64,000 bases of DNA. Source: the human T2T-CHM13v2.0 reference genome, Homo sapiens. The notes below the pieces were generated by a model. It did no database searches. It worked only from the letters and a program-made list of their open reading frames with translations, and was not told the DNA's origin. Below are positions 34,454 through 62,989 of this stretch, one piece after another. The stretch is from NCBI RefSeq assembly GCF_009914755.1, contig NC_060937.1; one strand, given 5' to 3'. Both the position numbers and the translations under genes were made by a program. Within the stretch, counting starts at the first letter, position 1, and each line of letters begins with the position of its first letter.

Positions 34454-34454
34454 A

Positions 34455-39061: not shown

Positions 39062-39079
39062 AATGGTTCTTTATTCCAA

Positions 39080-39351: not shown

Positions 39352-39385
<34 letters not shown>

Positions 39386-40334: not shown

Positions 40335-40706
40335 ATACACCGTGGAATACTATGCAGCCATAAAAAAGGATGGGTTCATGTCCTTTGTAGGGACATGGAT
40401 GAAGCTGGAAATCATCATTCTCAGCAAACTATCACAGGGACAAAAAACCAAACACTGCATGTTCTCACTCATAGGTGGGAAATGAACAATGAGAACACTT
40501 GGACACCGGAAGGGGAACATCACACACTGGGGCCTGTCATGGGGTGGGGGGAGGGGAGAAGGATAGCATTAGGAGATATACCTAATGTAAATGATGAGTT
40601 AATGGGTGCAGCACACCAACATGGCACGTGTATACATATGTAACAAACCTGCACGTTGTGCGCACATACCCTAGAACTTAAAGTATAATAAAAAAAAAAA
40701 AGAGAG
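40335..40706 (+). mobile_element. 5'-truncated L1PA (about PA4-PA6)
   Basis: L1PA 3' UTR plus poly(A); perfect 17-bp TSD agaatgtatggacccta at 40318-40334 and 40707-40723. Confidence 0.95.
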
Positions 40707-41510
40707 AGAATGTATGGACCCTATAATCTCAAGGAGGGGCGGCAACCTGGTTGAATATTTTTTCAAGCCAGTTTAGGGAAAGATTGATAAGGTTTCCAAT
40801 TTTTCAAAAGGACCCATAATTCAAATTTTTATATGAAATCTAATTTTTAATTTGAGTTGGAAATTAAAATCAATGTGTTATTTATGTTATGATCTCCACT
40901 TTTGGTTCTATGAGATTATTACTTGTTTAACTCTCTGTAATCTGAATTCTGCCACCCACAAGCCATATTAATGGAGATCGTGAATGACTTACATATTGTC
41001 TTTTGAATACATATTAATTTGCATCTTAATTGACCTGCAAGCAGTTTAAAACTCTTCAGGTGTGTTTATCAAAAGATTCCTTCATATGACTTTTTATCTT
41101 TCTCTACTCTTTCATCAATCTCATTTATTATTAAATTTCGGTTATCAGCTGCCATGCCAATAACTGCCAACTCTAAACACTTATCACAGTTTACTATGCA
41201 AGCTTTATAGGAATATTAATATACTTCCTATTCACATATTCAGTATACATCTTAAGTATTAATTCCCCAAACATATGATTGTCGTTCAGGAGACTTTCTT
41301 TGAACCTCAATAAATGTCATTACACTTTACAGCACTATATTTTTGTTTCATAGAACTTCACTGTTTTATTAATCATTTCTTTGGATAATATCATATATCT
41401 TCTACAAAAGCATAATTTCTATAGGGAAGACAATTTTATTTCTTATTTTTACTATGACATTTTAGCATCTACTATACTGGCCAGCACGCCACACATTTGT
41501 CAATAAATAA

Positions 41511-42638
<1,128 letters not shown>

Positions 42639-43817
42639 AAACTCAATAAATATTTTTGAATGAATAACTCCACAGTCCAAGTTATTTTAATCACTATACA
42701 AAATCTCCAGAGTTTCTTCCATATTTCTGAACATGGTAACTATGTATCAAGAGACAAACCACAAATTTAAAGAAGGTGTGGTCAAATTTTATAAGTGTTT
42801 ATAACATTTGTAAATGTTTGGCATCTAGAATACATGTATAATTCCAACAAATAAATAAGAAAAAAATAAATAATCCAGTGGGATATTGGGCAAAATATTG
42901 AAACCAAAGTGTCATAAAAGAGGAAATATTACTTTTTAATACACGTGGAAAATGTGTACCCACCTGAGCAATCACATATGCAAATGAAAGTTAAAACAAA
43001 ATACAACGAGGCAAAAAAAATTCCCTTGCTTAAGCCTAATGTAAACAAACAAAAAAAATTCATCAAAAGACTATTAGTTTCTATACAGTCAAGGATAATG
43101 TCCAAAATCTGGAGCCGGGAACTGATTCAGTGAGGAAACCACGCTCACCACCATTAAAGATAAGTTGCTATAACTTACATGGGTGTCACTATTGTTTCAG
43201 TAACTTGATCTTGCCCCTACTGCTATTGCTACCAGTGAGAATTTTATAGTGCTTAAATGTATCATTATATCATAATTAAAATTCTGGGGAGTGGGTTAAC
43301 CTAATTGATAGAGCTTAGGTCATCGGGCATACCCTAGCTGCAACAGAGACTGAGATAATGATTACCGTTATCTTCAGCTTCTATAGTAGGTGGCAAGCTC
43401 CGCATTGCAACAACAGGCACAAAATAAAAGGTTTCTCAATCATATAAAGGTGATTAAGATACTGAGCAGCCAAAATGCACATATGTACATAAACAGACAC
43501 TCTCATTACACATATGCCCAAAGAGATTTATTTCAGTATTCTATATAATATTAAAAAGTTGAAGAAAATCTAAATATTGGCCAATACAAAAATGCTTGAA
43601 TAAATGGTGACATGTTATTGGCAGACGTTATTATTAGCAGCCATAAGTCAGTCTCTATATGCCACTTTCTCTGGCATTCTACTATGGAAAATAAACAAAC
43701 ACTTTCAAAGTTTCTCTTTTGCCTTTTAGTCCATGTAAATTATATCTTGGTTAGTAATATTTGAAGAGAGATCTCCTGTGAGGTTTATGAGAAAGTTATT
43801 TCTCTTCCTATAAAGAC

Positions 43818-43835
43818 GTGTGTGTGTGTGCGTGC

Positions 43836-43872
<37 letters not shown>
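43818..43872. repeat. Compound (TG)n(CGTG)n(TG)n microsatellite
   Basis: Direct reading; about 55 bp of alternating purine-pyrimidine. Confidence 0.95.
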
Positions 43873-43874
<2 letters not shown>

Positions 43875-45127
43875 GAGGGGCTGTACATAGGAGACCAGCC
43901 TAGTTCTTGCTTAATAGTGAGGGCATAATATGGTGAATTGAAGCAACTACCTTTCAGTTATGAGGCTACGGGTCTAAGAATGAATGTGAGGATTGCTGAT
44001 GGAAAGAAGTGAGCCTGGCTTACAATAACATTATTTAGTGACTGACTCTCTGTCCAAATCTTTATTATTTGAGAAAACAACCCCTAAATTTAAATGGAAG
44101 GTTGTCGGGAATTTCTATTAAGTAAACTGAAAGTATCCTTAACTTACTCAACATTTATTTCATAGAATATTAAACAGCACTTGATTATGCTGGACCCAAA
44201 TGCATCAATGGGAATAAATCTTAAAAGTATAATGTTGAGTAAGAAACCACTATGTTTGGAATAAGTATAATATGATGAAATGTATTAATTAAGAAAAATT
44301 ATAAAACATTTCTGAATATTGTTCAAGCATACATATTTAATGATAATGTGAAATATGAATAAGAAAGTTGCACAGCGACACCAGAGAGGGAAAGAATAAA
44401 ATAGAAATCGTTCAGGAGAGGAAAATTTTGACTCCCTCTTTAATACTCAGAAATAATATAAAGCAAGTTTAATTAAAATTGTTGAATATGGAAGTAAATA
44501 CGTGGATGTCTATTATATTATTCTATTTTGTTTTGTATGTTAGGCATATTTCAAACTTAAAAACTTTTAGAGTGCTTTCCAAAGTAATGTGCAATTAAAT
44601 TCTTAGAGAAATACTGTAAAGAAAGTAGTATTTTCTCATACTACAGAGTAAACTACTGAGCCTCACTGACATGAAGTAATTTGCACAATTGTTTCTACTC
44701 CAATTGAAGTATTTTACAAATTGTTATGTCACAACCTGGGATTTTTCTTTTGCGTTATCATCATAGATATTCAGGAAATATCTACTCATATGTTCATAAA
44801 ATTGCCTTAAAATGTTTTTTACCAAAGAGACAAATGTTTTCATAGCCTTCATTCTTCGAAAAACCATCTATAACTTTAAACTCATGGTAATGTGTTTCAA
44901 GGAATACGTGAAATATGAAATTTTCCCACAGATTAAGTGGTAAAGATGAGAGCTCAGTGGTGGATAAAGGACAATAATAAATAGCTATTTTTGTATTTCT
45001 CCTTTTTTACATATTGCTTTTCTTCACTATAAATCAAATATACATTAAGTATTTTATTAAAATAAGTGAAACACTAGAATCTAAATATCTACAAAAATTA
45101 AGTGAAGAAATATATCAGAACCCATTG

Positions 45128-47939
45128 TAGGTTGAGCATTCTGAATCTGAAAATATGAAATGCAAAACACTTCAAAATCTGAAACATTTTAAGTGCTAAT
45201 ATGATGCCACAAGTGGAAAATTCCACACCTAACTTCATGTGATAGGTTGCAGTCAAAAGGCACGACCCACAGTTTATTCAGCATCTCCAAGGAAAAATGA
45301 CCATCTTAGCCCACTTCAGCTGTGATATATCTTCTCCATGCCCTTCTACGAAGGGTAATAAAATGGCACATGCACAGGCTGGATGTGTGTTCCCACCAGT
45401 GCCCTACATGGGGCCAAGACCTACGTGCATTACTGACTGTGCTTTTTCTTGCTTATTCTCTGCTCTTTGGTGTAAAGACATTACTGAAAATGTCAAAAAG
45501 GTCTGCAAATACCTCTGTGGGTAATGGTAATAAGAAAAAATAAAAGCGTTTCTGTTTATCTATATAAGAGAAAGTCAAGTTGCTAGAGAAACTGGACAGC
45601 AGTGTACGTGTGAAACATCTTACAGAAGAATATGGTGGTAGAATAACTGTCATATATACCCATGGAGAAACACAAGGATAGACTGCTGAAGATCTGTGCT
45701 GAAAGTGATGAGCAGAAGATATTGAAAAATACGAAACACTGCATAAAGCTAAAAATAAATATGTAAGTTGTGTAACCAAAGTGGATATGTTAGCATCCCT
45801 GAAGAAACACATATATACACCTGAAGAAACTTAAGGGTAAACTGCTGAAGATCTGTGCTGAAAGTGATCAGCAGAAGATAATGAAAAATACAAAAACGCT
45901 GAATAAAGCTAAAAATAAATATGCTTTATTTATAAAGCATGCCACTTAATGGTGTGTGGATCATGACATTAGCAAAGATCTATTACAATGAACTAGAAAA
46001 TTGAAGAGAACTCTGAATATTAAACAGATTGGTTGCAAAAATTTAAGAAAAGTCATGGCATTACATTTTTAAAGATTTATGGGGATAAAGCATCTGCTGA
46101 CCATTAGGCTGTAGATAAATTTATTAATGAGTATACCAAGATTATCGCTGATGAAGACCTGATGCCAGAACAAGTCTATAATGCTGATGAAACATTCATT
46201 TCTGTTTTGGTGTTGTTGCTCTAGAAAGACATCGACTAGAGCTGATAAGACAGCCACTATAGGAATTAAGTATGCCAAGGACAGAATAAGTGGCTGGGAT
46301 GTACTAATGCAACAGGCAAACATAAGTATAAACTTCCTGTGATAGGAAAAAGCTTGCATCCTCACTCTTTTCAAGGAGTAAATTTCTTAGTCCATTATTA
46401 TGCTAACAAGAAAGCATGAATCATCAAGGCGTCTTCTTTGACTGGTTTCACAAACATTTTGTACCAGCAGCTCAAGCTCACTGCAGCGTCGCTGGACTGG
46501 ATGATGATTGCAAGATTTTGTTATTCCTTGACAACTGTTCTCCTCATCCTCCTGTTGAAATTCTCATCAAAAATAATTTTATGCCATGTGTTTTTCCCCA
46601 AACATGACTTCATTAATTCTGTCATATCACCAAGATATTGTTAGATCAATAAAGAGTAAATATAAAAACACTTTTTTTGAAGAGCATGCTAGCAGCAGTG
46701 AACAGAGATCTGACTGTAGAAGGTTTTCAAAAGAAGTTTAGCATGAAGGATGCCATCTACGCTGTTGCCAATGCTTAGAATAAAGTGACTAAAGACACAG
46801 TTGTGCATGTCTGGAATAGCCTCTAGTCTGTAACCATGTTTAGTGATGATGATGAATAAGGTGGTGGGTTTGAAGGATTCCACATATCAAGTGAGGGAAA
46901 AAAAACGATGTCTGATCTCCTTACATATGCAAAAAATACCTTCAGAGTCCCTCAGTAAGCCGGAAGAAGTGGAATTTAGGAAGTTTTTAACAGTGATAAT
47001 GAGAATGCAGATTTTCATTCATTGACTGATGATCAAATAGCCAAAATGGTTCCGAATCAACGTGATCATGAAAATAGTGATCTTGAAGATGATTTATACG
47101 TTGCAGAAAAAGAGCCCACGACAACATGGTGAAAATAAGTGATGAGCTTATTGAAGGCCTAAAACAGTGTGCACTCATAACAGAAACAGAAATCTTCTCA
47201 GTTCATAAAATCAGAAAGTGACTTCTAAGACAAAGAATGTTGTTAATGAGACAGATGATTCTGGAGGAAGCATTTAAAAAAGCCATCCAGCTGAATGTCT
47301 CCTCATCCCTACAGGATCCACTTCCTGGTTGGCGACTGTTTCTAGTGTTTTTTTCTCACCTATAAAAGATAAAATACTGTCTACAGTAACCTTTTAATCA
47401 AAACACAGCTTCTTAGGTGGAGACTGAAAGCCTGCTCTTCTTTTTTGTTGCTGTTGTTTAACAGCTGTTAAAGGTATTCTGGTGAAGCGGGTGTGCTGAT
47501 TAGTTACCCTAAACCTATTATTTTTTCACTGTATTAATATTATGTCATATTTATTATGGTTAAGTGCTTATGTGTGAAAAAAATATAAGAAAATGCTTAT
47601 CAGTAGTTATAAATTCAGAGTTAGGAATGATGGTCTTGCCAAAAAAAAAAAAGCCCCACAGACTGTTCACGTGGGTGGCTGAGATAGTAGCACTTTTGGT
47701 TTCTGATGGTTCACTGTACAAGAACTTTATTTTATGCACAAAATTGTTAAAAATATTATGTAATGTTAGCTTCAGACTATCTTGGTAAAGTGCTTATGAA
47801 AAATAAATTTTGTGTTTACATTTGTGTCTCAACCTCAAGACGTCTCGTTATGTGTATGCAAATATTTCAAAATCCCAAACAATTCAAAATCTTACACACT
47901 TCTGGTTCCAAGAATTTTAGACAAGGAATAGTTAATATG
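45128..47939 (+). mobile_element. Near full-length Tigger4 (Zombi) pogo-family DNA transposon, decayed transposase
   Basis: Termini taggttgagcattctgaatctgaaaat and ttttagacaaggaatagttaatatg+TA; YNADET encoded at ~46177; ORF 46416-46607 WFHKHFVP...ILLFLDNCSPHP (pogo/CENP-B DDE domain); ~2.8 kb. Confidence 0.88.
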
Positions 47940-49571
47940 TATGAATAAACAGCACTTAAGAGAGAAAACGAAATTAAATAAAAGCTGAAAGAAGAATAAA
48001 GAAATTTTACTTCACTAAGAAAAATAAAAATAGCAGAGAAGAAATGTGATGTGTTACTGTGCTAACCTAGAGTTAGAGTTATGCTACCATTGCAATGACT
48101 TTCAGGAATATTTGATGATATCAACAAGGTATTGCTTCTGCAATACATGGAAAAGGCTACAGAGATAGTTTCGGCTTAATTGAAGTGGAGCTAACATTGT
48201 TAGTTTTACTAACAATGGAAGTGATATGCATGATATTAGAATTATATAATTGTTCTGCAGGTTTTGATTGCATGCTCTATGTCACCAATTTTTAATATTA
48301 CAAAAGTATAAGAGTGGGAAAAGTACAAATGGGCATTATTTTTTGTGTGTGCTTAATGTGTTGCCAAAATGTAAGGGCTGGTGATTGGTAATTCTATCAA
48401 AAAGAACACACACACTGCATACATACATATCCTGGAAAGAGAAGATTTAAAAGAAAAGTGAAATTAAGATCAATAGAGTCTGTGCTAAATAACAGTTGAC
48501 ATAACAGACATTGTATACTATTTCAAATAATAATTTCCATAATAGCTATAAGATAGGTTACCATTATTATTCAAATTTTAGAGATAAGGAAACTGAATTA
48601 TGGTTTTATTTAGCACTGGAGAAAGCACAGACAGTAAGTAGTAGATATTTATGTAAAACAATATTCATATGTTATCTAGAGCCCACAGTTTGAACATAAT
48701 ATCATAAAGGATTAAGTTGGAAAAATTAAGAACTATTAGAAGGTGATGACAGTCATAGGTTTACATCATATTCTTATAATTTATTAATTTTTCTTCCATA
48801 TTTATGTGTATTTTCTGAACCCGTTTCCTTATCTTAAAAATGGAAGTGTTAATACTAGTCTTGTAAGAGTTATTCTATCTTTCCCACAATTTTATCATGG
48901 ACAGGAAAAAAAAACTGATAGCTACATATAAACGCATGAAAAATGAAATGATATTCATTGTTCAAATATTTTATCACATGTGTACACCTCTTGTTAAACT
49001 TTATTTTTTCACAGAAAATGATACAAGTTATTATTAAATTTGTTGCTTAATCAATGTCTTATAAGCTTAACGTATAAGTTTGTAGTTGGCCATTTTATTC
49101 TCTATTTTATTGAGAATTATTCACTAACCATGCAGTAGTATTGTTAGTACCTTTCTTTTTGATCATATGAATGATCTTTTAAAAAGCGAAGATAGAGTTT
49201 TGTGGATTAAATACCATTCAAATTATAATTTATTGTTTTATTTCACTGGCACTGCTAGAAAACTAGTAGGTTTAACTATGTAAAGACGCTCCATGTTTTT
49301 CATATTTTAACTAAATGTTATATTTAGTTTAACTATATAAATATTAACTTCCTAATACCCCAATATATTACTCACAAGCCATGAATGAACATACTTTACA
49401 TGGTAGTCATTAAAAAACAACTTTTACAAGTAGACTCAGATGCCAGTATGTAATTCCCAAAAGGCTAAGAGGCTAAGAACTTGGTCTTGTGTACTGCTGT
49501 ATTACTAATGGCCGAGAAAATGCCTGGGACTCAGTGAACACTCCATAAATATTGATCCTATGAGCGTGACA

Positions 49572-49656
49572 GTGTGTGTGTGTGTGTGTGTATGCACGCA
49601 TGTGTCTGCGTGTGTGTGAGAGACAGAGAGAAGGAGAGAGAGAGAAAGAAGAGAGA
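49572..49656. repeat. (TG)n/(GA)n compound microsatellite
   Basis: Direct reading. Confidence 0.9.
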
Positions 49657-49946
49657 TCAACTTCCATCTCATTATTTCAGGCAAGAGCCACCATAAACAA
49701 TGTGTACTAAGTCGTAAGAAGAAATGGAATTAGAGCTTTATTTTAGAATAAGTACTCACTGATATTAAGCAATGTCAAACATACAGAAGATTAACATAAT
49801 GTTCAGGATTTGAGTAAAAATAAATCAGAAGAACTGGGAAAAGAATATATCTGCTTAAGTTTTGAATCCCTACAAAACAAAGTAGCAGCTTACATATATC
49901 AAAGTCTGGCTGTTTAGTAACTATTTTCTACTTCTGTTTAATTTTT

Positions 49947-49948
<2 letters not shown>

Positions 49949-49982
<34 letters not shown>
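49949..49982. repeat. (TG)n microsatellite
   Basis: Direct reading. Confidence 0.95.
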
Positions 49983-49986
<4 letters not shown>

Positions 49987-52900
49987 TGTAGCCTTAAATT
50001 TGCAGAATAACTTAGGACAATTTTACACTGTTATCAAATTAATGCAGCAAATGAGGAAAAAAGTCAGTGTATCTACATCAAAAAGCAAGGGTTATTTTTA
50101 ACATCAATAGTAATGAAATGTTTAAATGCATTGTTTAAAATTCAAAACAGAAGTGATAGGTGCCCATTTTTAATGAGAGGAGGCAAATGAACATTTGGGA
50201 ATTTTCCAACAATTCCACAATTAAAGAATATATAAAAACTAGATATTGAAAATGTGTATATCATCAGGGTGTTTGACTAAAATGTACTGTCTGTCTTGAT
50301 GAACCAGAGCAAGGAAGTGTTTCAGGAGTTCATCAGTGTTGAACAGTTGCTGACAACTTTGTTCTAATTTCTGAAAACAATTGTTTGCTAAATTATGGGG
50401 TACCTGATGAATAGCTTTAATTAGATTCGCATCAAGAAAAAAGAATAAAAAAGAACATATTCTTTAACTACATCTGGCCAGATGTATTATATCTATAATT
50501 TTAGAAGATAGATATATTACTGAATTCAATATTATGGTTTATGTGGTGGTTTTCTGATTGAAAGTTCGATAATTTGTCAGATTAGTAGGATATAGATAGA
50601 AAGAGTGTGCTGTATAATTTACCAAAAAGGTTAGTTTTCTTCCATGTGAAGAAATTATAAGGAAAGTTTTCATTCTGGATGCATGTTTTAAATGCTTAGT
50701 TAATAGTAGAGCATACATTAAAACTTTAATAAATTTAAATGTTAATACACTGAACAAAATAATTTATAAGGTCCAACTAAAATTCATATAGATGATTTTC
50801 TTAACCCATAGAGCACAGAAGAAAAGTTCGTCATTGATGACTGGCAAGTTCAATTTTTTTCTTCATCTTACCCATCATATATCCTTCACTTTTTTCTCTT
50901 CTCCTTTTGTTACTATAATTTATTGCTGTTATTGTTGTTAATTTTACCATTCTGTTCAAGCAATGAAGAATATGTAGAATATAAGTTAGTTGAATAGTAT
51001 TGAAATCCAGAGTTTATAAGATTTTGGATTAATATTTATAATAAAAGTTCAAAAAACAACTAAATTACGAATGCTATCTTTAAAGTAGACTTCTCGTAGT
51101 CCACAATAAACGGAAACTATTTTATAGATACAATTTCTGAAATATAATAGAGAAAGAAGATAATTGCCAGTATCAACAATATAGTATACGATGAAATTAG
51201 AATAAGTAGAGGCAGGCTTTTCACCTCTAAATAGTGAATGTTTTGCTATATTACATAAGAGCAAAGGTTAATTTTGCAGCTGGCTTTAATATCTTGTTCA
51301 TGCATATCATTGGGCTATGATACTACAGGAAGTTTTCTATAGTATGAATATGAAACCATAATTTTTCACATTATAAATTAATACAGGTTCACCAAAGATT
51401 TTTTTGAAAAATTTAACTCAAGTACATAATTACATAATGTCACAAATAAAAATGATTTTCAATTAATATGCAGTAATGATAAATTATTTATTTTCTAAAT
51501 TGTAGATTTTTCAGGAGCAATTTTAAATGATTCTCTTACCATTTAATTAAATCAGTACATTTTGCAATAGGTTGGTGGTTGTAATAATATTAAGGCATTT
51601 GGATAAAACTTTTGATTGACTATATTTGAAAAGCAAATGTTCTTAAAGTGCTGTCTTAACTTTATTGCAATTACGTTTTCCTAAGAAAATTTTTTTAAAT
51701 GCCTTTTTCTGTCATAACTACAACTTTTAAATCTGATTTTCAAAAATGCGTTGATTTAATTGTAAAAAAAGACACTTATCTTTTGAAAATCAAAGATTAC
51801 TAATAGTCAATTTAAAGTGCCAAATGGCAAATTAATGCCGTCAGCTCTAGGCTGTCTGTTTTAAAGTCATGGAACTTTCAAGAAATGTTCACTTTGAAAG
51901 AATCATGCAATATTGTGCATGATTTTCATCACCATTGGGTGATTAACTTTAAAATTGTATTCTTCAATTAAGTATGTTATCCCTAACAAACTTAAGTATA
52001 TAGCAAAATTTCTAAAACATGGAAGAGTAAATGATATCACAAGTAAACCACACATCAGGTTCTCTTCCTTTTCTGGCAGCTGGAAAGAGTGAACTTTCCT
52101 GTATTTTTTAAGTTAGGCCATAGTGAAATGAATTGCTTGTGACAATGAATATGAGCAAAAGTAATAGCTCTCATTTCTGGGCAGAAGCGTTTAATTCCTC
52201 ATCCTTGATTATCCAGATCCAGTCCATGTGAATATACGTTTATGAGTAGGTGCCCTGGAGACCAAAGGAACCTAACTAAAATGCTAAGATAACCTTTGGA
52301 AGACTGAGAATGCTTGGAACTGAGAGATATAATTCAGTCGTATCATATCCATTGTTAGCACAACACAACCATTCTATCCTGACTGATACATCCTACATGA
52401 AAAAAAATCATGATTGATGCATTTACCTAAGCTAATATGTTGCTGTTATTAAGTCAAGAGTCAAAGTCAAATTCCATTTAACAATTTATTATAGCCTCTT
52501 CATATTGCTTTGTCTTCCATTGGGCTTTCAGACTTACTTTCTTCTGAGCTAATCTTCTTCACATGTGCATAGTATTATTATTAGAGGAGTAATTAAATTA
52601 ATATGCATTCTTTATAAATTCTCTGCCCTTTGCAGTGAAATAAAATCGGCACTCATTATAATTTAACCTTTTCATAGTTTATAATCCATGATGGAGCATA
52701 AATAATGTGAATTCTTTAAAATGAAGCTGTCAGAGGAAGAAATTACTGTCTCATTAGACAGCTAGGTTATAATAGTTTTGAATTATATGTAGTTACTTAT
52801 TAGCAGCTACAATTATACCTCATATGGGTATTTGGAATTCATGCAGCTTTAATAAATAACTTTGTTGAGATGGTGCTCTGCACATGATAAATTGGTCAGT

Positions 52901-53471
52901 TTTATGTTTTTGTTTAATATTTTTCTTATAATGATATAGTTTGGCATATATATGAATTCAAAATAAGTCAGTGTGGTTTTATTTTTCACCAGCTTATTTT
53001 TATTTAATTAAACCTAAAAATTACACTGACATAGATACAAATTTCCTTTTTTTCAAATATAAATTTTGTTTTCTTTATACGTTCAAGCTTTCTTATACAT
53101 TAGAACATTTGTAACATTAGAAAGTAAATTGTACACTTATTATTATTCATAAGACAATTTTTGAAGTTGGGTAATTTTTAACAAAATGATGCTATATCTT
53201 CTATGAAAATATGAGTTTTGTTGTTCAAACATTTTAATGAAATTGGATACAGAAACCAATTTTTAAAAGTCATCCTATGAAATTTCTTTATTCATTTCTG
53301 AACATCTGGCTATTTCTTGTTGAATTAGGTTTTAAATGACTATTTTAATATTTCTAAAAAATAATCAATCAGAAATACTTCATTATTTATTTCACTGGCT
53401 TTCAGTTACAATATCTATTTAAAATAAACATTTACATAGGTTGTGATACATGGAACATATTTTGCTTGAAG

Positions 53472-53508
<37 letters not shown>

Positions 53509-54187
53509 TATAAACAAACACACAAACAGAGATGTGATTAATTACTCTAGGTCACTGACTATTTTGTTTAATGAAAAGTTACCATTTAAACCATGCAGTT
53601 ATCCTTTGATATCATGTAGTGATTGGTTCTAGGACCCCTAATAGATACAAAATTCTCCTTATAGATACAAAAATGGTGTAGTATTTGCAATGCTATATTT
53701 ATTTTATGTAATGCTATATTTATATGTAAAGCTATTTATATATGTAATGCTATATATATTACATTATATATGTAATACATTTACATATATAATGCTATTT
53801 ATATATGTTTATATATACAACTATATGAATAGTTGTTTTATTGTATTGTTTTTTATTTGACTTATTTTTATTGCATTTTATAAGTTTTTTTTAATCAGAG
53901 CTTGGTTACATCCATGGATGCAGAACCCATAAATATGGAGGGAGGACTGAATGAATATAATAAGATTTTAAAATAAGAGAAATTAAATTAGTAAATTATG
54001 TAAGACTCATTCACCTTCAATATTTTAACATTATTTATTAAAACGAACATGTACTTACAATGCTTTTACTATATTCTAAGCAGTGGGCTATGCAAGGAGG
54101 ATTAAACAAATACCAGTGTATAAAAAAATGCACCACGCGGAAGTAATACTTTTATTAAAAATTACAATTAATAATGAAGAGTGCCCC

Positions 54188-54561
54188 TGATACGGTTTTG
54201 CTTTGTGTCCTCTTGAAATCTCTTGTAATTCCCATAATCCCCATGTGTCAAGGGTGGAACCAGGTGGAGGTAATTGGATCATGGGGGCGGTTTCCCCGCT
54301 GTTGTTCTCACGGTAGTGAGTGAATTCTCACAAGATCTGATGGTTTTATACACATCTGGCATTTCCCCTTCTTGTACTCACTCTGTCCTGCCACCATATG
54401 AAGAAGGTGTCAGCTTTTCCTTTGCCTTCTGCCATGACGTTTTGTAAGTTTCTTGAGGCCTCCCCAGCCATTCAGTGCTGTGAATCAATTAAACATTTTT
54501 CCTTTATAAATTACCCAGTCTCAGGTATTTCTTCATAGCAGTGTGAGAAGAAACTAATACA
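54188..54561 (+). mobile_element. MSTA/THE1-type LTR (mirror copy in right arm)
   Basis: Reverse complement of 14889-15262. Confidence 0.88.
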
Positions 54562-55544
54562 AACCCTTTGTTTGCTGTTTCATTAATATCTTTAAGCAAT
54601 TTCTAATTAGATTTTTTTAATTTTGAATTTTTTAGGTATATAGTCAGTGTACATATTTATGGGGTATGTGAGATATTTTGGTACAGGCATGCAATGTGTA
54701 ATAATCACATAGTGGAAAATTGGGTATCTATGCCCTCAAGCATTTAACTTTTGTGTTAGAAACAATCCAATTATACTCTTTTAGTTATTTTTAAATGTCA
54801 AATTAAATTACTATTGACTATAGTGCCCTTGGTGTGCTATCAACTACGGTTTTATTTATTCTTTTAAATTATTTTTTGTACACATTAACCATCTCCCCTC
54901 CTTCCTCTCACCCACCAACTACCCTTCCCAGCTTCTGGTAACCATCTTTTAAGGATTTTTTATGACAATTTCTTTATGTTTTTAAGTACTTATAATTTTT
55001 TATTTATTTTATTTTATTGCTGTATTTATTCATTTATTTTATTAAGTACTTGTAATTTCATTTCCATTTTGTGCATATACACATTCCAATCCCTATATTA
55101 GGTAATGGAAATACTAGTACAAAAAATGTACTTTGAATAATAGCACTTTCCATCTGATAATGTAACAGTCATTGCTATGTAACATACAATTCAAAACATA
55201 TTGTGGCGTAAAATAGCTGCATTATTTAGCTGGCAAATCAGTAGGTCAGCTGGAAAATGACTAAGAGAGTTTTGCTCAATTTTTAGAGGTCAGTTAGAGG
55301 ATCAATGGCAGATTGGCTTTGCTAATCTTGGCTAGGTTTTTCTGTGTATCTGGAAACCTGGTAGAGATGAAAGAGTTGACTCAGCTCTACCTCACATATT
55401 TTCTTATGCACCACCATCCTAGATTGGGCTTGCTCTTCAGAAACCCAAGAAAAAGGGCAAAAATATACTAGATATCTTGAGGGAGGCTCAGAATTGACAA
55501 CCTGTCACTTCTGCCACACTCTACTGACTGAAGCACGTCCCAGG

Positions 55545-56122
55545 TATATTAGTCAGGGTTCTCTAGATGGATAGAACTAATCAGATATATGTATATCTGA
55601 ATGGGAGTTTATTAAGGAGACTTGATTCACACAATCACAAGGTGAAGTTCCACATTAGGTCATCTGCAAGTTCAGGAGCAAGGAAGCCAGTCGTGGCTCA
55701 GTCCAAGTCCCAAAACCTCAAAAGCAGGGAAGCCGATAGCGCAGCCTCCAGTCTGTGGCCAAAGGCCTGAGAGCCCCTGGCAAATCACTGGTGTGAGTCC
55801 AAGGGTCCAAAAGCCAAAGAACTTGAAGTCAGATGTTTGAGGGCAGGAAGCATCCAGCATGGGAGAAAGATGAAGGCTGGAAGACTCAGCAAGTCAGCTT
55901 CTTCCACCTTCTTCTGCCTTTTCCTAGCCAGTCTGGCAGCTAATTGGATGGTGCCCACCCACACTGTAGATGGGTCTTCCTGAGGATGGGTCTTCCTCTC
56001 CTAGTCCACTGACTCAAATCTTAATCTCTTCTGGCAACACCCAGAAACACCCACATATACCCAGAGACAATACTTTGCATCCTACAATCGCATTAAGTTG
56101 CCATTTAATATTAACCATCACA
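55545..56122 (-). mobile_element. MLT2A solo LTR (mirror copy)
   Basis: Reverse complement of 13327-13904. Confidence 0.85.
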
Positions 56123-58128
56123 CAAGGCCAGCCCTTATGAAAGGGTGAGAAAGTTCACCACATTTCTTAGGAGAATCTGCTAAGTCACATGGAAAGGGGT
56201 TTGGATATAGAGAAGGAAATAATCATAGCCGTTTTTTTTTTTCAAGATAGTAAACCTGACATGAAAATAAATGTACATTTTGAATAAACATAATAATGCT
56301 TTTCTGTTTTGACATTTGAAATCTAAGGCCATATCATGAGCATGAAAACTGAATGGGTTGCAATTCATAGAATCTGTGCATTTTGTTTAACCTAGTTCTC
56401 AATAATGGTAAATACAGTAAATATGTGAGAGAACTATAAAATTTGTAAGTAAATTTCCAGTTTTGTCTTCCATTTCTACAACTTTTTATACCAAAATTAA
56501 ATACTCATCATTCCTCCAATGGGCCTCTCATTTATTCCTTAACTTATGCTCTATACCTTAGGCCCATATAAAACTTAGTGCTGTACCAGAATAGCATAAA
56601 CATCCCATTTGTTTCAAATTCTGTTTTCTCTAGAACAAAATCACATATCTGGAATCTCAATCTGACTTTTTTTTTGTAATTTCCTTGTCATATTAATGTA
56701 CATAACATATGATATAAAGTCACTTCAATTTCAAATATTGTTTACGTGTGTTTCTTCTCTTTGCTATTAAACAGCAAAGTTTTTAACAGAAAGCGTTTTA
56801 TTCACCAATTTTTATTAGTACAATGAGAGATTTTTTTTAATTAGAAGCCTACAAAGATAAGAATGTTAGTAAACATTGGTAGAATATTTCAACATAATTG
56901 TAAAAGCTTTAAAGTGGTTGCAGCAAAGTAAATAATTTAGGAGAATGGGGCAAGCAGAAAATGAAATGTCTACAGAGCTGCAGAGGGAGATATTAACAGA
57001 AATAAACCAGAATTTTACCCTCCCCCCAAACACACACAAGTGAAACTCTAAAACAATTAGAAAGTAAAGGCATGGGTAATTGGGACTTCAAAGGTGATGC
57101 GAGTCTAATTATTATTTCAATTTAACAGGTAACAACAATGACATTTAAAGAGGTTAAGTGACTGCCGTAGGTTTCACATCAATATTAATTTGTGAGACTT
57201 GCATTAGATCTTCAAATTCAACATCTGGAGTTTAAGAAAAGCTTTCTTTTACTTTGGAAATCACTTTCTGACAATAGCTAGCTCTGTTAATTTTGCTTAA
57301 ACAACGTATTTACCTTCCACTCTCTATTATCCTGTATTGTTTTTCTAACTTTTTATATATGTTCAATTATAATATATTTCTCAAAGGTTTTAATGGCATA
57401 ACAATAACAAGATGACAGGAATTTAGAAAAAGGATACTCTCAGTATGATCCCAGACAAGTTAATGATTTTGTTAATCAACTGATTCAATATAAAGTTAGA
57501 AAAATTAAACTATTATAAACTGAATGATTGCCCCTCCCCCAAACTCATATGTTGAAGCCCTAACCCTCAGTGTGACAGAATTTGGATATAAAGCCTCTGG
57601 AGGTTAGAGCAGATGAGGACACAAGGATGGAGCCCTTATAATTGTGTCAGTGTCCTTTCAAGCATAGACTACATATAGCTTGCCTTCTTTGCATGCACAA
57701 AAAGGAAGTCGTGTGAGCACCCAGTGAAAAGGCAGCAGCAGTCTATAAGCCAGAAAGAGAGGCAGAACCTGACTATGCTGACATCCAGACATCCAGGTTT
57801 CAGACTTCTAGCCTCCACAACTGTAAGAAAATAAATTGCTACCATGTAAGCAACTCAGACTACAATATTTTGTTATGACAGTCTGAAATGACTGATAACA
57901 AAGTACTAATCCATGAATTGGATGTAAGAATTAACTGAAGGAAAAGAATAAACAGTTGACTTTTCTTCAATTCTTGTTGTACAGGGAAATGATATATATG
58001 AATAAAAAATATAAAAATAGTAAACACAGCATTACATAAGTAACCCTGCCACAGGCATGCTATGTTTGTATTATTTATAATAAACTGCATTCTAACATAA
58101 GCATTTATTCTAATTTTCAAATAAAGAT

Positions 58129-58710
58129 TGCGCAGAAAAGAGTTAATGTAGTAGTTTGGAGACTGATATCCTTAGAAAGGACTGCTCTTATGGTTGTCTG
58201 TTAGCTGATCTGGGAACATGGATTACAGGAGAGTTCCTACCATTCCCAAAATTTATAAGAGAAACTATTATACCTAAACTTTTTTTGCAAACAGTATGGT
58301 TTATGCCGAATACCTACTTACCTTCTGAGAACCAAGAATTTTGATATATACAAAGCAAAAAGTGCCTACGTGACCAACCCCAGTAAAAACCCTGGGCACC
58401 GAGTCTCTAATGAGCTAATTAGAATATGCTAATGAATGAACTAATAAAATATTGATAGACAATATTTCATATATATTGTCATAACTCATTGTTGGAGGAT
58501 AGGCCTGTGTGACTCCACTGTGAGAGGACTTTTGGATACTTGTACCTAGTTTCTTGTAAAGTTTGCTGCATTCACCTTTTACTTTTGTGGATTTATCTTT
58601 GTATCTTTTTGCTGCATTGAATAATAGACATGAATATAACTATATGTTGAGTTCATTGAGCCTTCCTAGCAAATTGCCAGTCCTGGGATAAGTCTTAGGG
58701 ACCACTGACA
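58129..58710 (+). mobile_element. MER21-family LTR (mirror copy)
   Basis: Reverse complement of 10727-11311. Confidence 0.7.
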
Positions 58711-59166
58711 TAGGCTCAGGGAGCATAACTTATTTTCCCTCCCCATTTTATCTGATTCCAAAAATCTGTGATATGAAAACTCACAGGTAATAGAGAGAAT
58801 AGAAAAACAGTATTGAAAAAATAGTATGAATATTACCATGAAGCTATGTGGGAGCTCAAGGATGCAGTGGGCGAGGATTCCTCCACTGCACTCCAGCCTG
58901 GGCAACAGAGTGAGACCCTGTCTCTAAAAAAGTAAGTAATTAATTAATTAAATATTAACATAAAGGAGAAAAATATACTATTACCTGAATCAAGATGATG
59001 TTTGGCATACCTCAGTTTATCTTTAAGTTGTACAAGTGCAGTTTTATTTAACAAGCTTTTATTTAAAGGTGTGTGTCAAAAAGATGGAAAATCAAATCAA
59101 GTTTATTCAAAAATACTAAATCACGATCCCTCTTTCTTCACTTCCTCCAGAGTATTCAAAGACTAT

Positions 59167-60652
59167 TTGAATCTCTTTGAATGTTTCTAATAACTTGCTT
59201 TATGAATTTGGGTGCTCCTGTGTTGGCTGCATATATATTTAAGATAGTTAGGTCTTCTTGTTGAATTGAACCCTTTACCAGTATGTAATGCCCTTCTTTA
59301 TCTTTTTTTATCTTTGCTAAAGTCTATTTTGTCTGAAATTAGAATTGCAATCCCTGTTTTTTTCTGTTTTCCATTTGCTTGGTAGATTTTTCTTCATCTC
59401 TTTATTTTGAACTTATGGGTGTCACTGCATGTGAGATAGGTCTGTTGAAGACAGCATACCACTGGGTCTTGCTTCATTATCAAACTTGCAAATATGTACC
59501 TTCGAATTGGGGCATTTAGCTTGTTTACATTCAAGGTTATATTGATACGTGTGGATTTGATCCTGTTATCATAATGTAAGCTATTTACTATGCAGATTGG
59601 TTTATATGATTGCTTCATATTGTCACTGGTTTGTGAACATAAGTGTGTTTTTGTAGTGGCTGGTAATGGTCTTCCACTTCCATATTTAGTGCTTCTCTCC
59701 AAAGGTGCTGTAAGGCAGGTTAAATGATAGCAAATTCTCTCAGCATTTCCTTGTCTGAAAAGGATCTTATTTCTCCTTTTCTTATTAAGCTTAGTTTGGC
59801 TGGATATGAAATTTTGGGTTGCAATTTCTTCAATTTGAAAATATTGGATATTGGCACCCAATATCTTCTGCATTGTAAGGAGATACCTTCTCACACCAGT
59901 AAGAATGGCTATTATTAAAAAGTCAAAAAATAACAAGGGCTGACAAGTTTGCAGAGAAAAAGAAACACTTATACACTGTTGGTGAGAGTGTAAATTAGTT
60001 CAACCATTGTGCCAAATGGTACTGTTGGTGGGAGTGTAAATTAGTTCAACCATTGTGGCAAATGGTGTGGCAATTCCTTGGAGACCTAAGAACAGAACTA
60101 CCATTCAGCCCAGCAATCCCATTACTGGGTATACACCCAAAGGAAAATAAATTGTTCTATCATAAAGATACATGCACACGTATGCTCATTGCAGCACTAC
60201 TCGTGACAGCAAAGACATAGCATCAACCTAAATGTCCAGCAATAACAGATCAGATATAGAAAATGTTGTGTATACACACCATGGAATACTCTGCATCCAT
60301 AAAAAACAAAAACAAGATTATGTCCTTTGAAGGAATATGGATGGAGCTGGAGGTCACTGTCCTTAGAAAACTAACGCAGCAACAGAAAACCAAATACCAG
60401 AAGTTCTCACTTATAAGTGGAGCTAAATGATGAGGACACATGGACAAATAGAGGGGAACATCAGACTCTAGAAGCTGTCAGAGGATGGAGGGAGGGAGAG
60501 GATTTGGAAAAATAACTCATGAGCACTAGGCTTAACACCTGAGTGACAAAAACTAATCTGTACAACAAACCTGTGACACAAGTTTACCTATGTAATAAAT
60601 CTGCACATTTACCCCTGAACTTAGAATAAAAGTTAAAAAATAAATTTAAAAA
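59167..60652 (+). mobile_element. 5'-inverted L1PA (mirror copy)
   Basis: Reverse complement of 8785-10270; identical 180-aa ORF at 59394-59936. Confidence 0.85.
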
Positions 60653-62989
60653 AGAATATTTAAGAGAAATTTAGTAGGTCCAGTTATTTGTTAAAAATTT
60701 TAACTCCAGAGAAAGCAAATACTTTCTTTGGTCTTCTTTTTCTAATTTTCTACAAGAATTCTCATTGGACAGGAATAGAGAAGAGCACATGAGCTTATCT
60801 TAGTCTCACATTTATGAAATACTTTATTTTTCTCTATTTTCTTCAAGCTCTGCCCTGAACACTACTCTCTTTTCTAAGAAGACATTCATCTCTTTTCTGA
60901 GAAGGCATTTCTGCAAAGGCATTCATCATCATCAGGTATTTTAAGCCTGGGTAACACCAATTTTGTGGCCTATAGATATGAGCTAATCTCTTTGGGCATA
61001 AAGATCAGAGCAATGAAGTTTGCATGGATAAGACATAATGCCAGCAGGCAAACAGGACGCCTATTTGAGAATACCAGGTCTCAGTAAATATACTGATTGT
61101 ATTATGTGCCGTGCTCTCGACATAGGTGTACTGAAGAAAGGGATATAGGCATAGATGAGAAGGAGAAAATAATCAGTGTAAGAGGAAAATCAGTAAGAAT
61201 ATGGAAAAACTAAACCAAAACAAAGGGAAACTTCTGCTATGGAATTCTCCTTGTACTGCCTTTACCTACTTCATGCTCTTTTCTGTCAAAGATTAAAGAA
61301 GGCCTTTTACAATTAAATAGCTATGGCCTAAAAACAAATTAAAATTTGCTGACAATATAATATTTACTTCTAATTATGATTTACATAATTTATTAAACAA
61401 ATATTTTTCAAGCTACCACATTTTGCTAGGTAGTAAGAACACAATGTTAAGCGAAATTTGGTTCATTTAACCATGTATTGGTTTTAAGAAATCAAAATAG
61501 ATCACCTTAACACAAATTATTTGGCTGATACTAACGCTGCCATATAAAAGTGTTCTGTTTTTTTAGTGGGTGTTTTCATAAGAAAATTAATAATATATTT
61601 CTATTGTGTTTTTAATATGCTGAAAAATGCATTTGAAAGAGGAAAACAGTTTCCTTCACAAAAAAATGAGAAGATAAGTGAGATGAAAACTTGTAATTAA
61701 GATGACCTTGGTTCTAAAGTTATTAACTAAATAATGGATTTATTCAGGACTTAAGATATAATACAGTTCCTTGGATTAAGAATGTTTGCCATCATTAATT
61801 ATTCCATAATTGAGGTCACTGGACTTGGAAATGTACTATGTCAAAATTAATTCACCAATACAATATCTAAAATCCTTTAATTCTGTACTTGGAAGTTTGA
61901 AAATATGTGTTTCGAGATCTTGAAATCCTTAAATTGAGTATTATGTGTATGTATAAATGCAAATAGTATACAAGTCATAAAATTGAATATAAATATTGGC
62001 TAAAGTTTAAAGAAAAATGATAAATTAAATTGTTTGGTAGCTGGTTATGATAATGTTTTTGCTTTTAGATTTTATAATCATAGAGAATATTTAGTTTACT
62101 ATGTCATCTTCTAATTTGGAAATTTTTTTTAATTATGGAGAAAGTACGGGGAATTTTATCTGACTTATACTTTGCTCTTAATTATAGTATGCATAATGTT
62201 CTTAAAAACTGTTAACTAAGGTTAGGTTAATGTGCTAATAGGTTATTTGATAAACCATTATTATTATAATTTTAGATAGTTATTAATCTATTCTTGCTCA
62301 GACTTCTTTGATTAAAACATCCCTTTAGATATGATTGTATATGTTTAGATCACTATGCCATTTGAACTTTATTAAATTAAGAGAATTTCAGGTACAAGCT
62401 AATATGTTGGGTTGATTGAAAAAATGACTACAAGTCTCAAATTTTCCATATTAATGTCATCTGCAAATCCTCTCATCAAGAGTTTGAATGTATTTTCTCA
62501 CTCTTAGTTAGCCTAGGCTGGCTTCTTTCTTTCCTTGAACTAAGAAAATTTATAGTATGCTAGTTTCAAGTGTAGTCCTCGAGTCTTCACACATTTCCAT
62601 TTTCTATTGAAACCAACATGAGAACAAGTCTGTGCTAACTTGTTAAAAAATAAGAGTGCAGGTGGATCAGAAATAAATTGTCCAACTGAGGACATCCTTG
62701 TGCAGTTAGACCACAGCCAAATCAATTCATGGCAGACACAAGCCTAAGGCCAGATTAACTGAGTCTGCCCTAGCAATCTCACATAACTACCAGTAATAAG
62801 AAATAATAATTGTTCTCGTTTTAAGTCACTGAGATTTGTGGTATTTTATTACAGAGTGATATTTAACTGGTATGACTAGGAAACCTATTTTTTTGTATAA
62901 ATATTATATTGATAATAAAAATTGGAAAATTATTTTGGAAATAGCTTCTGAAAGTGCAATAGTGAGATTCTGCTGACATATTTGTTATT

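What the first reader, a model, noticed from the sequence alone, without database searches (positions are those of the whole stretch)
50469..50518. Inner junction of the right arm is a patchwork: perfect 18-bp fold-back palindrome plus a 25-bp templated insert
Seen: 50469-50486 tacatctggccagatgta is a perfect palindrome. 50494-50518 tataattttagaagatagatatatt is the exact reverse complement of 20506-20530, which lies 1.57 kb past the inner end of the left arm. It overlaps the arm start by 2 bp of microhomology (tt, 50517-50518). Inference: a broken end folded back, copied 25 bp, jumped 1.57 kb on the same template via microhomology, then copied the arm. The alternative is a longer duplication followed by a 1,568-bp deletion that left only ~25 bp.
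Basis: partly seen in the sequence, partly recalled or inferred. Interest (0 to 1): 0.8.

Follow-up and report, generated by a model that had tools for sequence, protein, structure and literature searches.

The report
Patchwork scars at an inverted-repeat junction
The odd 50 bases are real and look like scars of a copying accident in which DNA synthesis hopped between nearby templates while building the inverted repeat behind a known human chromosome 13 inversion.

Summary
Observation confirmed. The arms are 8340-18937 and 50517-61093 (10.6 kb, 99.5%). The 18-bp palindrome and the 25-mer (reverse complement of 20506-20530) are exact. The 25-mer occurs only twice in the genome.

New here:
- The DNA left of the junction (29022-50474) is a truncated inverted copy of a segmental duplication 62 kb downstream. 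Its homology to two parent copies stops at 50474, inside the palindrome. The parents read tacatc-aa-gatcta there, so the perfect palindrome arose at the junction.
- The right arm's outer junction is also a patch. 61081-61113 is the reverse complement of 28980-29012 (32/33). It is 13 nt shared with the arm end plus 20 nt beyond it. Its source lies 9 bp from the duplication's other boundary and is not collinear with the arm, so no simple deletion explains it.
- The repeat pair mediates the published recurrent inversion HsInv0340, seen in chimpanzee, gorilla and orangutan data, so the structure is old.

Best reading (about 0.62): one serial template-switching event of MMBIR/FoSTeS type. A later 1,568-bp deletion (about 0.2) needs ape or pangenome haplotypes to exclude. 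The fold-back step is only partly supported, because 3 nt (tgg) are unexplained. Which arm is the copy is unresolved. This is a new example of a known kind, of moderate interest.

The parts
8340..18937 (+). Left arm of the inverted repeat.
   Evidence: 99.46% over 10,598 columns against 61093-50517; 35 substitutions and 8 indel entries, spread along the arm. The innermost 436 bp are identical.
50517..61093 (-). Right arm of the inverted repeat.
   Evidence: The arm occurs only twice in the genome.
50469..50486 (.). Perfect 18-bp palindrome: 6 nt inherited (tacatc), then tggcca, then gatgta.
   Evidence: As single-stranded DNA it folds into a 7-bp stem with a 4-nt loop, -3.9 kcal/mol; 7 of 200 shuffles fold as well.
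50475..50493 (+). 19-nt filler between the end of the duplicated block and the 25-mer.
   Evidence: the only exact place in the genome; one 1-mismatch place on chr10, and the control pattern also gave one. No similarity to the left locus beyond 20530 (1119 of 2000 shuffles score as high).
50494..50518 (-). 25-nt templated patch. Its last 2 nt (tt) are shared with the arm.
20506..20530 (+). Source of the 25-nt patch.
18938..20505 (+). 1,568 bp that the right-hand copy skips or lacks. It is ordinary unique DNA.
   Evidence: no other copy in the genome. There are only 9 short hits (48-80 nt, 78-88%), 8 of them on about 19913-19982, an old dispersed-repeat core. The 'MIR' label for that core is recalled, not tested; no poly-A tail or target-site duplication visible.
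29022..50474 (+). 'SD A': a truncated inverted copy of a downstream segmental duplication. It holds OR7E156P and the KRTAP21-1-like gene.
   Evidence: 38462-50474 against window coordinates 124536-112550 at 99.0%, and 97.4% to chr13:45.668-45.680 Mb; the left edge is at 29021/29022; the right edge is at 50474 against both parents; the two parents share at least 55 kb at 97.7%, extending past both edges of SD A.
28980..29012 (+). 33-nt element: 20 nt followed by a 13-mer (gtatatttactga) that is also the first 13 nt of the arm.
   Evidence: It lies 9 bp from the left edge of SD A.
61081..61113 (-). Second copy of the 33-nt element, straddling the right arm's outer end: 13 nt inside the arm and 20 nt beyond it.
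   Evidence: 32 of 33 identical; the one difference is cg against ca; only these 2 places in the genome at up to 3 mismatches.
29013..29021 (+). 9 nt between the 33-nt element and SD A.
   Evidence: not part of the repeat unit of SD A.
29016..29029 (+). Possible 14-nt patch spanning the S1|SD A junction. It equals the reverse complement of 61849-61862.
   Evidence: Borderline by the control.
50486..50498 (+). Possible 13-nt patch spanning the filler|25-mer bond. It equals the reverse complement of window coordinates 111713-111725, which lie 825 bp beyond the parent's breakpoint and are collinear with it.
   Evidence: the same 13-mer is also in the second parent. Borderline by the control.
7949..8336 (+). 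Old dispersed repeat, cut off at the left arm's outer edge. The 'L1 ORF2-like' label is recalled.
   Evidence: 1,932 first-look candidates; other copies continue for hundreds of bases; profile positions 97-482 of 973 match, with no continuation anywhere in the window.

Best explanation
The 50 bases are the scar of a multi-step template-switching event (MMBIR/FoSTeS-like, or iterative polymerase-theta-type synthesis). That event, in a great-ape ancestor, built the derived arm of the 10.6-kb inverted repeat together with the neighbouring 21-kb inverted copy of a downstream segmental duplication.

Read on the + strand in the present (O1) orientation, the chain is as follows.
1. Unique DNA runs to about 29012-29021.
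2. Synthesis copies the downstream duplication backwards for 21.4 kb, down to its position 112550 (29022-50474).
3. Synthesis stops at an imperfect inverted repeat in that template. It adds 19 nt that include a de novo perfect palindrome.
4. It copies 25 nt (20530 to 20506).
5. It slips 1,568 nt on the same template through a 2-nt match.
6. It copies the arm (18937 to 8340).
7. It moves through a 13-nt match to 29012 and copies 20 more nt (to 28980).
8. It rejoins unique DNA at 61114.

Shown: the segments, their sources, orientations and overlaps, and the fact that the parent copies lack the perfect palindrome.

Inferred: that all this happened in one event, the order and direction of synthesis, the enzymes, and which arm is the copy. 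The spacer flips recurrently, so the event may instead have happened in the O2 orientation, with the derived arm next to 8339.
For: 1. The 25-mer is exact, collinear with the arm, and present only twice genome-wide. It joins the arm through a 2-nt overlap.
2. A second patch sits at the other end of the same arm. 61081-61113 is the reverse complement of 28980-29012 (32/33), with only 2 places genome-wide. The 13-mer occurs only at 8340, 29000 and 61093(-) in the window. This patch is not collinear with the arm, and its source is 9 bp from the other boundary of SD A. That ties the arm copy and SD A to one process.
3. Homology of SD A to both parents ends at 50474, inside the palindrome, and the parents continue differently. 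The junction sequence was therefore made at the junction.
4. SD A is truncated at both ends relative to a parent pair sharing at least 55 kb, so it is a derived insert.
5. Two further junction-spanning 13-14-mers match places within 1 kb of other junction points. In the control, 90 of 4,000 random bonds do so. By my binomial, 2 of 7 unexplained junction bonds gives p about 0.01.
6. In the O1 reading all segments between 29021 and 61114 are inverted relative to their sources.
7. Substitutions cluster near two junctions (post hoc, my Poisson arithmetic). Six A-specific and 0 B-specific changes fall in the last 447 bp before 50474, against 34 and 33 over 11,690 columns (p about 0.002). Three of the 35 arm substitutions fall in the outermost 59 bp (p about 0.001).
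8. Microhomology, templated insertions and raised point-mutation frequency are named as the signatures of such junctions in passages of PMC4352052. Short (about 5-34 bp) foldback inverted insertions at breaks are described in the abstract of PMC11724301.
Against: 1. No ancestral or alternative haplotype was seen, so the single-event claim and the 'never had the 1,568 bp' claim are inferences.
2. Three nt (tgg) at the palindrome's centre have no template, so a simple snap-back of the inherited end does not give the observed sequence.
3. The two 13-14-nt micro-patches are individually within chance (2.25% per bond). A different weak alignment of the filler to the parent's continuation competes with one of them (166-386 of 5,000 shuffles).
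4. The substitution clusters have other explanations: weaker gene conversion at repeat edges, and conversion of parent B by parent C, which would be counted as A-specific. The arm's inner 436 bp show no change at all.
5. In the O1 reading, the old repeat that is cut exactly at 8336-8339 is an unexplained coincidence. Gorilla and orangutan are O2.
6. In the O2 reading, the 13-nt overlap is the coincidence instead.
7. SD A against its parent differs at 0.58% of sites and the arms at 0.33%. This could mean two events, although rates vary several-fold along SD A.
Confidence: 0.62

Rival explanations
1. Longer duplication followed by deletion. The inverted copy originally spanned 8340-20530 (12.2 kb). 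Later, an ordinary 1,568-bp deletion with 2-bp microhomology removed 18938-20505 from that copy and left a 25-bp island.
For: The island is collinear with the arm and the overlap is only 2 nt. Both facts fit a simple end-joining deletion. The structure is old, being present in chimpanzee, gorilla and orangutan data, so there was time for a deletion.
Against: One deletion end would have to fall within 25 bp of the edge of a 12.2-kb copy, about 0.2% for a random endpoint (my arithmetic). The same arm's other junction has a patch that no deletion can make. The hg18-based table already lists 10.6/10.6-kb repeats, so at least two human assemblies agree, although that does not date the loss.
Confidence: 0.2
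2. End joining of broken pieces rather than long-range replication. Two or more double-strand breaks were joined by alternative end joining. The polymerase made short trial copies (25 nt, 20 nt, a snap-back palindrome) from single-stranded DNA near the ends before final ligation. The large blocks were already-duplicated fragments.
For: The patch sizes (13-33 nt), the snap-back-like palindrome and the 2-13-nt overlaps fit iterative synthesis at break ends. The abstract of PMC11724301 describes about 5-34-bp foldback insertions that need polymerase delta on one end and end joining on the other.
Against: This reading still needs a source for two inverted blocks of 10.6 and 21.4 kb, which replication-based copying supplies directly. 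The templates of the patches lie 1.6 kb to tens of kb from the joined ends in the final structure.
Confidence: 0.1
3. Insertion into the left copy. The duplication ended at 20530, and the 1,568 bp (18938-20505) were inserted later into the left arm region.
For: A 2-nt repeat (aa/tt) flanks the segment.
Against: The segment has no other copy in the genome, no poly-A tail and no target-site duplication. It contains an old dispersed-repeat core in its middle. It looks like resident ancient DNA.
Confidence: 0.03
4. Chance or assembly artefact.
For: 18-bp palindromes occur about 0.75 times per 64 kb in shuffles.
Against: The 25-mer and the 33-mer are each found only twice genome-wide, while their control patterns found nothing. 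The palindrome straddles an independently defined breakpoint. The published hg18 geometry has the same 10.6-kb repeats.
Confidence: 0.01

Closest known systems
MMBIR / FoSTeS complex rearrangement junctions. Sources: Hastings et al. 2009, PMC2621351, seen only as a search listing with the start of the abstract; PLP1 complex rearrangements, PMC4352052, passages read.
   Same: Several junctions lie in cis. Microhomology is 2-13 nt. Short templated inserts come from nearby DNA. Large blocks are copied in inverted orientation. There may be a local excess of point changes.
   Different: This is a fixed, evolutionarily old product shared with apes, not a de novo patient allele. The single-event origin therefore cannot be observed. 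Later gene conversion and recurrent inversion have overwritten part of the record.
Short foldback (snap-back) inverted insertions at double-strand breaks. Source: PMC11724301, abstract read.
   Same: A very short inverted copy of the sequence next to the break (here 6-9 nt) sits at the junction.
   Different: The palindrome has no spacer, and its axis lies 3 nt beyond the last inherited base. The central tgg is not explained by folding back the inherited end.
Large fold-back inverted duplications. Source: Hermetz et al. 2014, PMC3907307, seen only as a search listing with the start of the abstract.
   Same: An inverted duplication with microhomology at the junction.
   Different: Here the 10.6-kb arms are 31.6 kb apart, and the gap is partly filled by an unrelated 21-kb duplicated block. 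There is no terminal deletion or chromosome-end context.
HsInv0340, a recurrent NAHR inversion between 10.6-kb inverted segmental duplications on chr13. Sources: Aguado et al. 2014, PMC3961182, tables and passages read; Giner-Delgado et al. 2019, PMC6748972, passages and Supplementary Data 6 read.
   Same: It is the same repeat pair: chr13, SDs of 10.6/10.6 kb, OR7E156P inside, and LINC00395 truncated by the inversion.
   Different: In the passages I read, those papers treat the repeats as given and genotype the inversion. The base-level anatomy and origin of the repeat junctions are not discussed there.

Membership tests
MMBIR/FoSTeS-type serial template switching | Two or more breakpoint junctions in cis, joining segments copied from different nearby templates. 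| tested here: met
   The junctions are at 29021|22, 50474|75, 50493|94, 50516|17, 61093|94 and 61113|14. The sources are mapped.
MMBIR/FoSTeS-type serial template switching | Microhomology at the switches. | tested here: met
   There are 2 nt (tt) at the 25-mer|arm switch and 13 nt at the arm|33-mer switch. The other junctions have 0-6 nt or filler.
MMBIR/FoSTeS-type serial template switching | Short templated insertions whose templates lie nearby. | tested here: met
   There are two: 25 nt with its template 1.57 kb from the arm's end, and 20 (+13) nt with its template 9 bp from the other boundary of SD A. Each occurs only twice genome-wide.
MMBIR/FoSTeS-type serial template switching | Raised point-mutation rate near the junctions. 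| tested here: inconclusive
   Clusters lie at 50028-50456 (6 A-specific against 0 B-specific) and at 8375-8398. They are post hoc and unpolarised for the arms. Edge effects of gene conversion could also produce them.
MMBIR/FoSTeS-type serial template switching | All junctions arose in one event. | not testable with these tools
   This needs ape or outgroup assemblies, and none is reachable here.
Fold-back / snap-back inverted insertion | The inserted bases are the reverse complement of the bases at the broken end. | tested here: inconclusive
   gatgta mirrors the inherited tacatc. However, the 3 nt tgg and their mirror cca are absent from both parents.
P-nucleotide-type hairpin opening | The palindrome axis lies exactly at the end of the inherited sequence. 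| tested here: not met
   The axis is at 50477|50478, whereas inherited sequence ends at 50474.
Simple end-joining deletion inside a longer duplication | The island is collinear with the arm, with short microhomology at the deletion. | tested here: met
Simple end-joining deletion inside a longer duplication | A haplotype or species exists with the undeleted copy. | not testable with these tools
   No ape or pangenome sequence is available. The genome holds no third copy.
HsInv0340 inverted-repeat pair | chr13 inverted SDs of 10.6 kb, flanking OR7E156P and cutting LINC00395. | tested here: met
   The arm length is 10,598 columns. The gene table of the window places OR7E156P between the arms and LINC00395 across the left arm. 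The published table and text agree.

The most novel reading that the evidence does not exclude
One replication accident with at least five template switches, in an ancestor of the great apes, created three things at once. The first is the 10.6-kb inverted repeat that has since flipped recurrently in humans and chimpanzees (HsInv0340). The second is the inverted OR7E/KRTAP duplicate. The third is the juxtaposition from which LINC00395 is spliced, with exons in SD A, in unique DNA and in the left arm. The locus would then be a fully readable base-level fossil of MMBIR that built an evolutionary segmental duplication and a genetic toggle for a testis lncRNA.
Probability: 0.3. Interest if true: 0.6.

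Novelty: new member of a known kind. Interest (0 to 1): 0.42.

Why it matters
How inverted segmental duplications arise is mostly inferred from patient rearrangements. Old, fixed examples rarely keep readable junctions. Here both junctions of the derived arm and one boundary of the neighbouring duplicated block keep short templated patches. The parent copies of the duplicated block serve as an internal outgroup for one side of the palindrome. If ape assemblies confirm a single event, the locus links a replication-based origin to a repeat pair that now drives a recurrent, population-differentiated inversion. According to the cited papers, that inversion is almost only African and disrupts LINC00395. 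If they instead show an undeleted arm, the 25-mer is just the remnant of a deletion.

Tried and rejected
1. Filler against the left locus beyond 20530: no similarity (1119 of 2000 and 397 of 2000 shuffles score as high).
2. Filler as a copy from elsewhere in the genome: the 19-mer is unique.
3. Filler as a garbled continuation of the parent copy: the best local alignment is 10 of 11 with one gap; 166-386 of 5,000 shuffles and 205 of 5,000 random window pieces score as high. Not significant, so kept only as a remark.
4. 1,568 bp as a transposon insertion: rejected.
5. Right flank 61094+ as the missing half of the cut old repeat: my by-eye resemblance was not borne out (one search gave no hit; one search gave background scores 20-24; one search gave no profile hit).
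6. Repeat copy at window coordinates 69918-70789 as the missing half: rejected, because it spans the break position itself.
7. Inversion-with-staggered-breaks models: worked through on paper. They leave the 25-nt and 33-nt patches unexplained.
8. Dating and one-event-versus-two by divergence: 0.33% for the arms against 0.58% for SD A and its parent. Not informative, because rates vary several-fold along SD A and the repeats are homogenised. The repeat is shared with apes.
9. A 13-mer shared by 27626-27638 and 61834-61846: chance, with no extended alignment.
11. Pfam scan to label the old repeat: not run, because the translation has stops. The L1 label is therefore recalled.
12. Literature: searches for LINC00395/OR7E156P (19 papers, 15 listed) and HsInv0340 (4 papers) found no description of the junction anatomy in the passages I read. 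Six of the 18 supplementary files of PMC6748972 were not searched.
Full report
WHAT IS THERE

The window holds a 10.6-kb inverted repeat. The left arm is 8340-18937 and the right arm is 50517-61093. They are 99.46% identical over 10,598 aligned columns. A second alignment gives 35 substitutions and 8 indel entries spread along the arms, and the innermost 436 bp are identical. The arm has only these two copies in the genome.

- 50469-50486 is a perfect 18-bp palindrome.
- 50494-50518 is the reverse complement of 20506-20530.

With up to 3 mismatches, the 25-mer has 2 matches in the window, and 0 of 100 shuffles gave 2. Genome-wide it has 2 places at up to 2 mismatches, against none for the control pattern. 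Its source lies 1,568 bp (18938-20505) beyond the left arm's inner end, in the arm's orientation. It overlaps the arm by 'tt'.

An 18-bp perfect palindrome is not rare in itself. The window has 5 of at least 18 bp, 3 of which are TA runs, and block shuffles give 0.75 per 64 kb. Its position is what matters, as the next section shows.

THE SPACER SIDE OF THE JUNCTION IS ITSELF A DUPLICATED BLOCK THAT ENDS INSIDE THE PALINDROME

A whole-genome search with 50380-50560 found two more copies of the first 95 bases only.

Mapping with fetched flanks shows that window 29022-50474, here called 'SD A', is an inverted copy of window coordinates 112550 to about 136215, here called 'B'. SD A holds OR7E156P and the KRTAP21-1-like gene. 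B lies 62 kb to the right of the junction. Identity is 99.0% over 12,018 columns and 98.5% over 4,343 columns. SD A is also 96-97% identical to chr13:45,668,344-45,689,194, here called 'C'.

B and C share at least 55 kb at 97.7%, and that homology runs past both ends of SD A. SD A is therefore a truncated secondary copy.

Homology of SD A to both B and C stops at 50474. All three copies read ...ctttaactacatc. The window then continues tggccagatgta..., whereas B and C continue aagatctaagc....

The consequences for the palindrome are these.
- Only tacatc is inherited.
- The other 12 nt arose at the junction.
- The axis lies 3 nt beyond the last inherited base.
- The parents carry an imperfect inverted repeat at the same spot (tacatc-aa-gatcta, 5 of 6 complementary).

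The 19-nt filler 50475-50493 has no other exact copy in the genome. The search found one 1-mismatch place, and the control pattern also found one. The filler does not resemble the left locus beyond 20530.

THE OTHER END OF THE RIGHT ARM IS A PATCH TOO

61081-61113 equals the reverse complement of 28980-29012 at 32 of 33 positions. The single difference is cg against ca. Genome-wide these are the only two places at up to 3 mismatches.

The element has two parts.
- A 13-mer (gtatatttactga) that is also the first 13 nt of the arm. It occurs in the window only at 8340, 29000 and 61093(-).
- 20 nt that lie outside the arm at 61094-61113.

The source, 28980-29012, ends 9 bp before the left boundary of SD A at 29022. 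This patch is not collinear with the arm, so a longer duplication trimmed by deletion cannot produce it. It also links the arm copy physically to the boundary of SD A.

Two further short matches span junction bonds.
- 29016-29029 is the reverse complement of 61849-61862.
- 50486-50498 is the reverse complement of window coordinates 111713-111725. That place is 825 bp beyond B's breakpoint and collinear with it. The 13-mer is also present in C.

In a control, 90 of 4,000 random bonds in unique DNA had a spanning 13-mer that matched within 1 kb of a junction point. Two of 7 otherwise unexplained junction bonds doing so gives p about 0.01 by my binomial. This is suggestive, not firm.

MOST LIKELY MECHANISM

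The anatomy has several junctions in cis, overlaps of 2 and 13 nt, templated patches of 25 and 20-33 nt from nearby DNA, and two large blocks copied in inverted orientation. This is the pattern attributed to serial template switching. Passages of PMC4352052 name microhomology, templated insertions and raised point-mutation frequency as the signatures. PMC8421209 and PMC11724301 were read as abstracts.

In the present orientation, the whole stretch 29022-61113 reads as one composite insert.
1. B is copied backwards.
2. Synthesis stalls at B's imperfect inverted repeat. A 19-nt filler with the new palindrome is added.
3. 25 nt are copied from 20530 to 20506.
4. A 1,568-nt slip follows.
5. The arm is copied from 18937 to 8340.
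6. A 13-nt match leads to 29012.
7. 20 nt are copied, to 28980.
8. Unique DNA resumes at 61114.

All the pieces are inverted relative to their sources. What is shown is the segments, their sources and their overlaps. What is inferred is that this was a single event, the direction of synthesis and the enzymes.

A prior argument also favours switching over a later deletion. A random deletion endpoint would fall within 25 bp of the edge of a 12.2-kb copy about 0.2% of the time (my arithmetic).

Possible further support comes from substitution clusters, which are post hoc.
- Six SD A-specific and 0 B-specific changes lie in the last 447 bp before 50474. Overall the counts are 34 and 33 in 11,690 columns.
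- Three of the 35 arm substitutions lie in the outermost 59 bp.

These clusters can also come from weaker gene conversion at repeat edges, or from conversion of B by C.

WHAT DOES NOT FIT OR STAYS OPEN

- The central tgg has no template, so 'the broken end folded back' is at best 3 unexplained nt plus a 9-nt mirror. P-nucleotide-type hairpin opening fails its defining test, because the axis is not at the inherited end.
- As single-stranded DNA the palindrome folds only weakly: -3.9 kcal/mol, and 7 of 200 shuffles fold as well.
- A weak alternative alignment of the filler to B's continuation exists. Between 166 and 386 of 5,000 shuffles score as high.
- An old dispersed repeat in the left flank is cut at 8336-8339, exactly at the left arm's outer edge. 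Other copies continue, and no continuation exists in the window or in the 194 kb examined. The L1 label for this repeat is my recognition, not a tool result; a Pfam check was not possible.
- That cut suggests the 8339|8340 bond may itself be a rearrangement junction.

WHAT IS KNOWN

The repeat pair is the published polymorphic inversion HsInv0340. The published record, from tables and passages I read, is as follows.
- It is on chr13, with SDs of 10.6/10.6 kb.
- OR7E156P lies in the inverted region, and the inversion truncates LINC00395 (PMC3961182).
- It is almost restricted to Africa, with MAF 52% (bioRxiv 10.1101/501981).
- PMC6748972 treats it as a recurrent inversion (a supplementary figure legend seen).
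- Its Supplementary Data 6 lists chimpanzee experimental O1+O2, panTro5 O1, gorilla experimental O2, gorGor5 O2, ponAbe2 O2 and rheMac8 ND. The ancestral status is given as 'ND (Recurrent)'.

The window carries the O1 orientation, because LINC00395 is contiguous in the gene table.

Two consequences follow.
- The structure predates the human-chimpanzee split and probably the gorilla split. The 99.5% identity therefore reflects homogenisation, and divergence cannot date or separate the events.
- The spacer has flipped repeatedly, so the orientation at origin is unknown. If it was O2, as in gorilla and orangutan, the derived arm sat next to 8339. That would explain the cut old repeat, and the 33-nt element at 28980-29012 would then be the copy. 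The price is losing the 13-nt microhomology explanation and the uniform orientation of the pieces.

I could not decide between these two readings. In both, the 25-mer sits at the inner junction of the derived arm copy, and in both the 33-nt patch remains non-collinear.

VERDICT

Template switching is the best explanation (about 0.62). A later deletion remains possible (about 0.2). The fold-back step is only loosely supported.

The repeat and its inversion are already known. In the passages and tables I read from the four papers that name HsInv0340, the junction anatomy is not described. Six supplementary files of PMC6748972 were not searched.

This is a new, unusually legible member of a known kind of rearrangement scar. 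Interest is moderate.

Noticed in passing
window 29022-50474; window coordinates 73914-136215 (outside the window); chr13:45,630,002-45,689,194: There is a three-copy architecture. A block of at least 55 kb is shared at 97.7% between 13q21 and 13q14. A truncated 21-kb inverted secondary copy of it (SD A) lies 62 kb upstream of its parent. SD A and its parent therefore form a second, larger inverted repeat pair (about 99%) interleaved with the 10.6-kb pair.
   Followed up: partly
7949-8339: An old dispersed repeat (recognised by me as L1 ORF2-like) stops exactly at the left arm's outer edge. Other genomic copies continue for hundreds of bases. No continuation was found in the 194 kb examined.
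   Followed up: yes
18611-18642, 20949-21069, 29469-29578: The LINC00395 exons listed in the gene table lie in the left arm, in unique spacer DNA and in SD A respectively. The transcript is therefore spliced across two rearrangement boundaries and can only be contiguous in the O1 orientation. The annotated 5' end of OR7E156P (28995) lies inside the 33-nt element 28980-29012.
   Followed up: no
22948-22965: This is the only other non-TA perfect 18-bp palindrome in the window (tttcttggatccaagaaa), with a BamHI site at its centre. The published HsInv0340 BamHI probe row seen ends in the same tttcttggatcc.
   Followed up: no
29022-33895: There are arrays of about 80-bp tandem units, only 80-93% alike between copies, at the left end of SD A and in both parents. 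The exact left breakpoint in the parent therefore cannot be placed.
   Followed up: partly
38700-50474: Differences between SD A and its parent are very uneven. By my count from the position lists, there are about 46 in 38.7-43.0 kb, about 9 in 43-49 kb and 15 in the last 1.4 kb. This hints at gene-conversion tracts between the two copies.
   Followed up: no
37601-37620; window coordinates 125299-125360: A TA run of about 20 bp in SD A corresponds to a TA run of about 60 bp in the parent copy.
   Followed up: no
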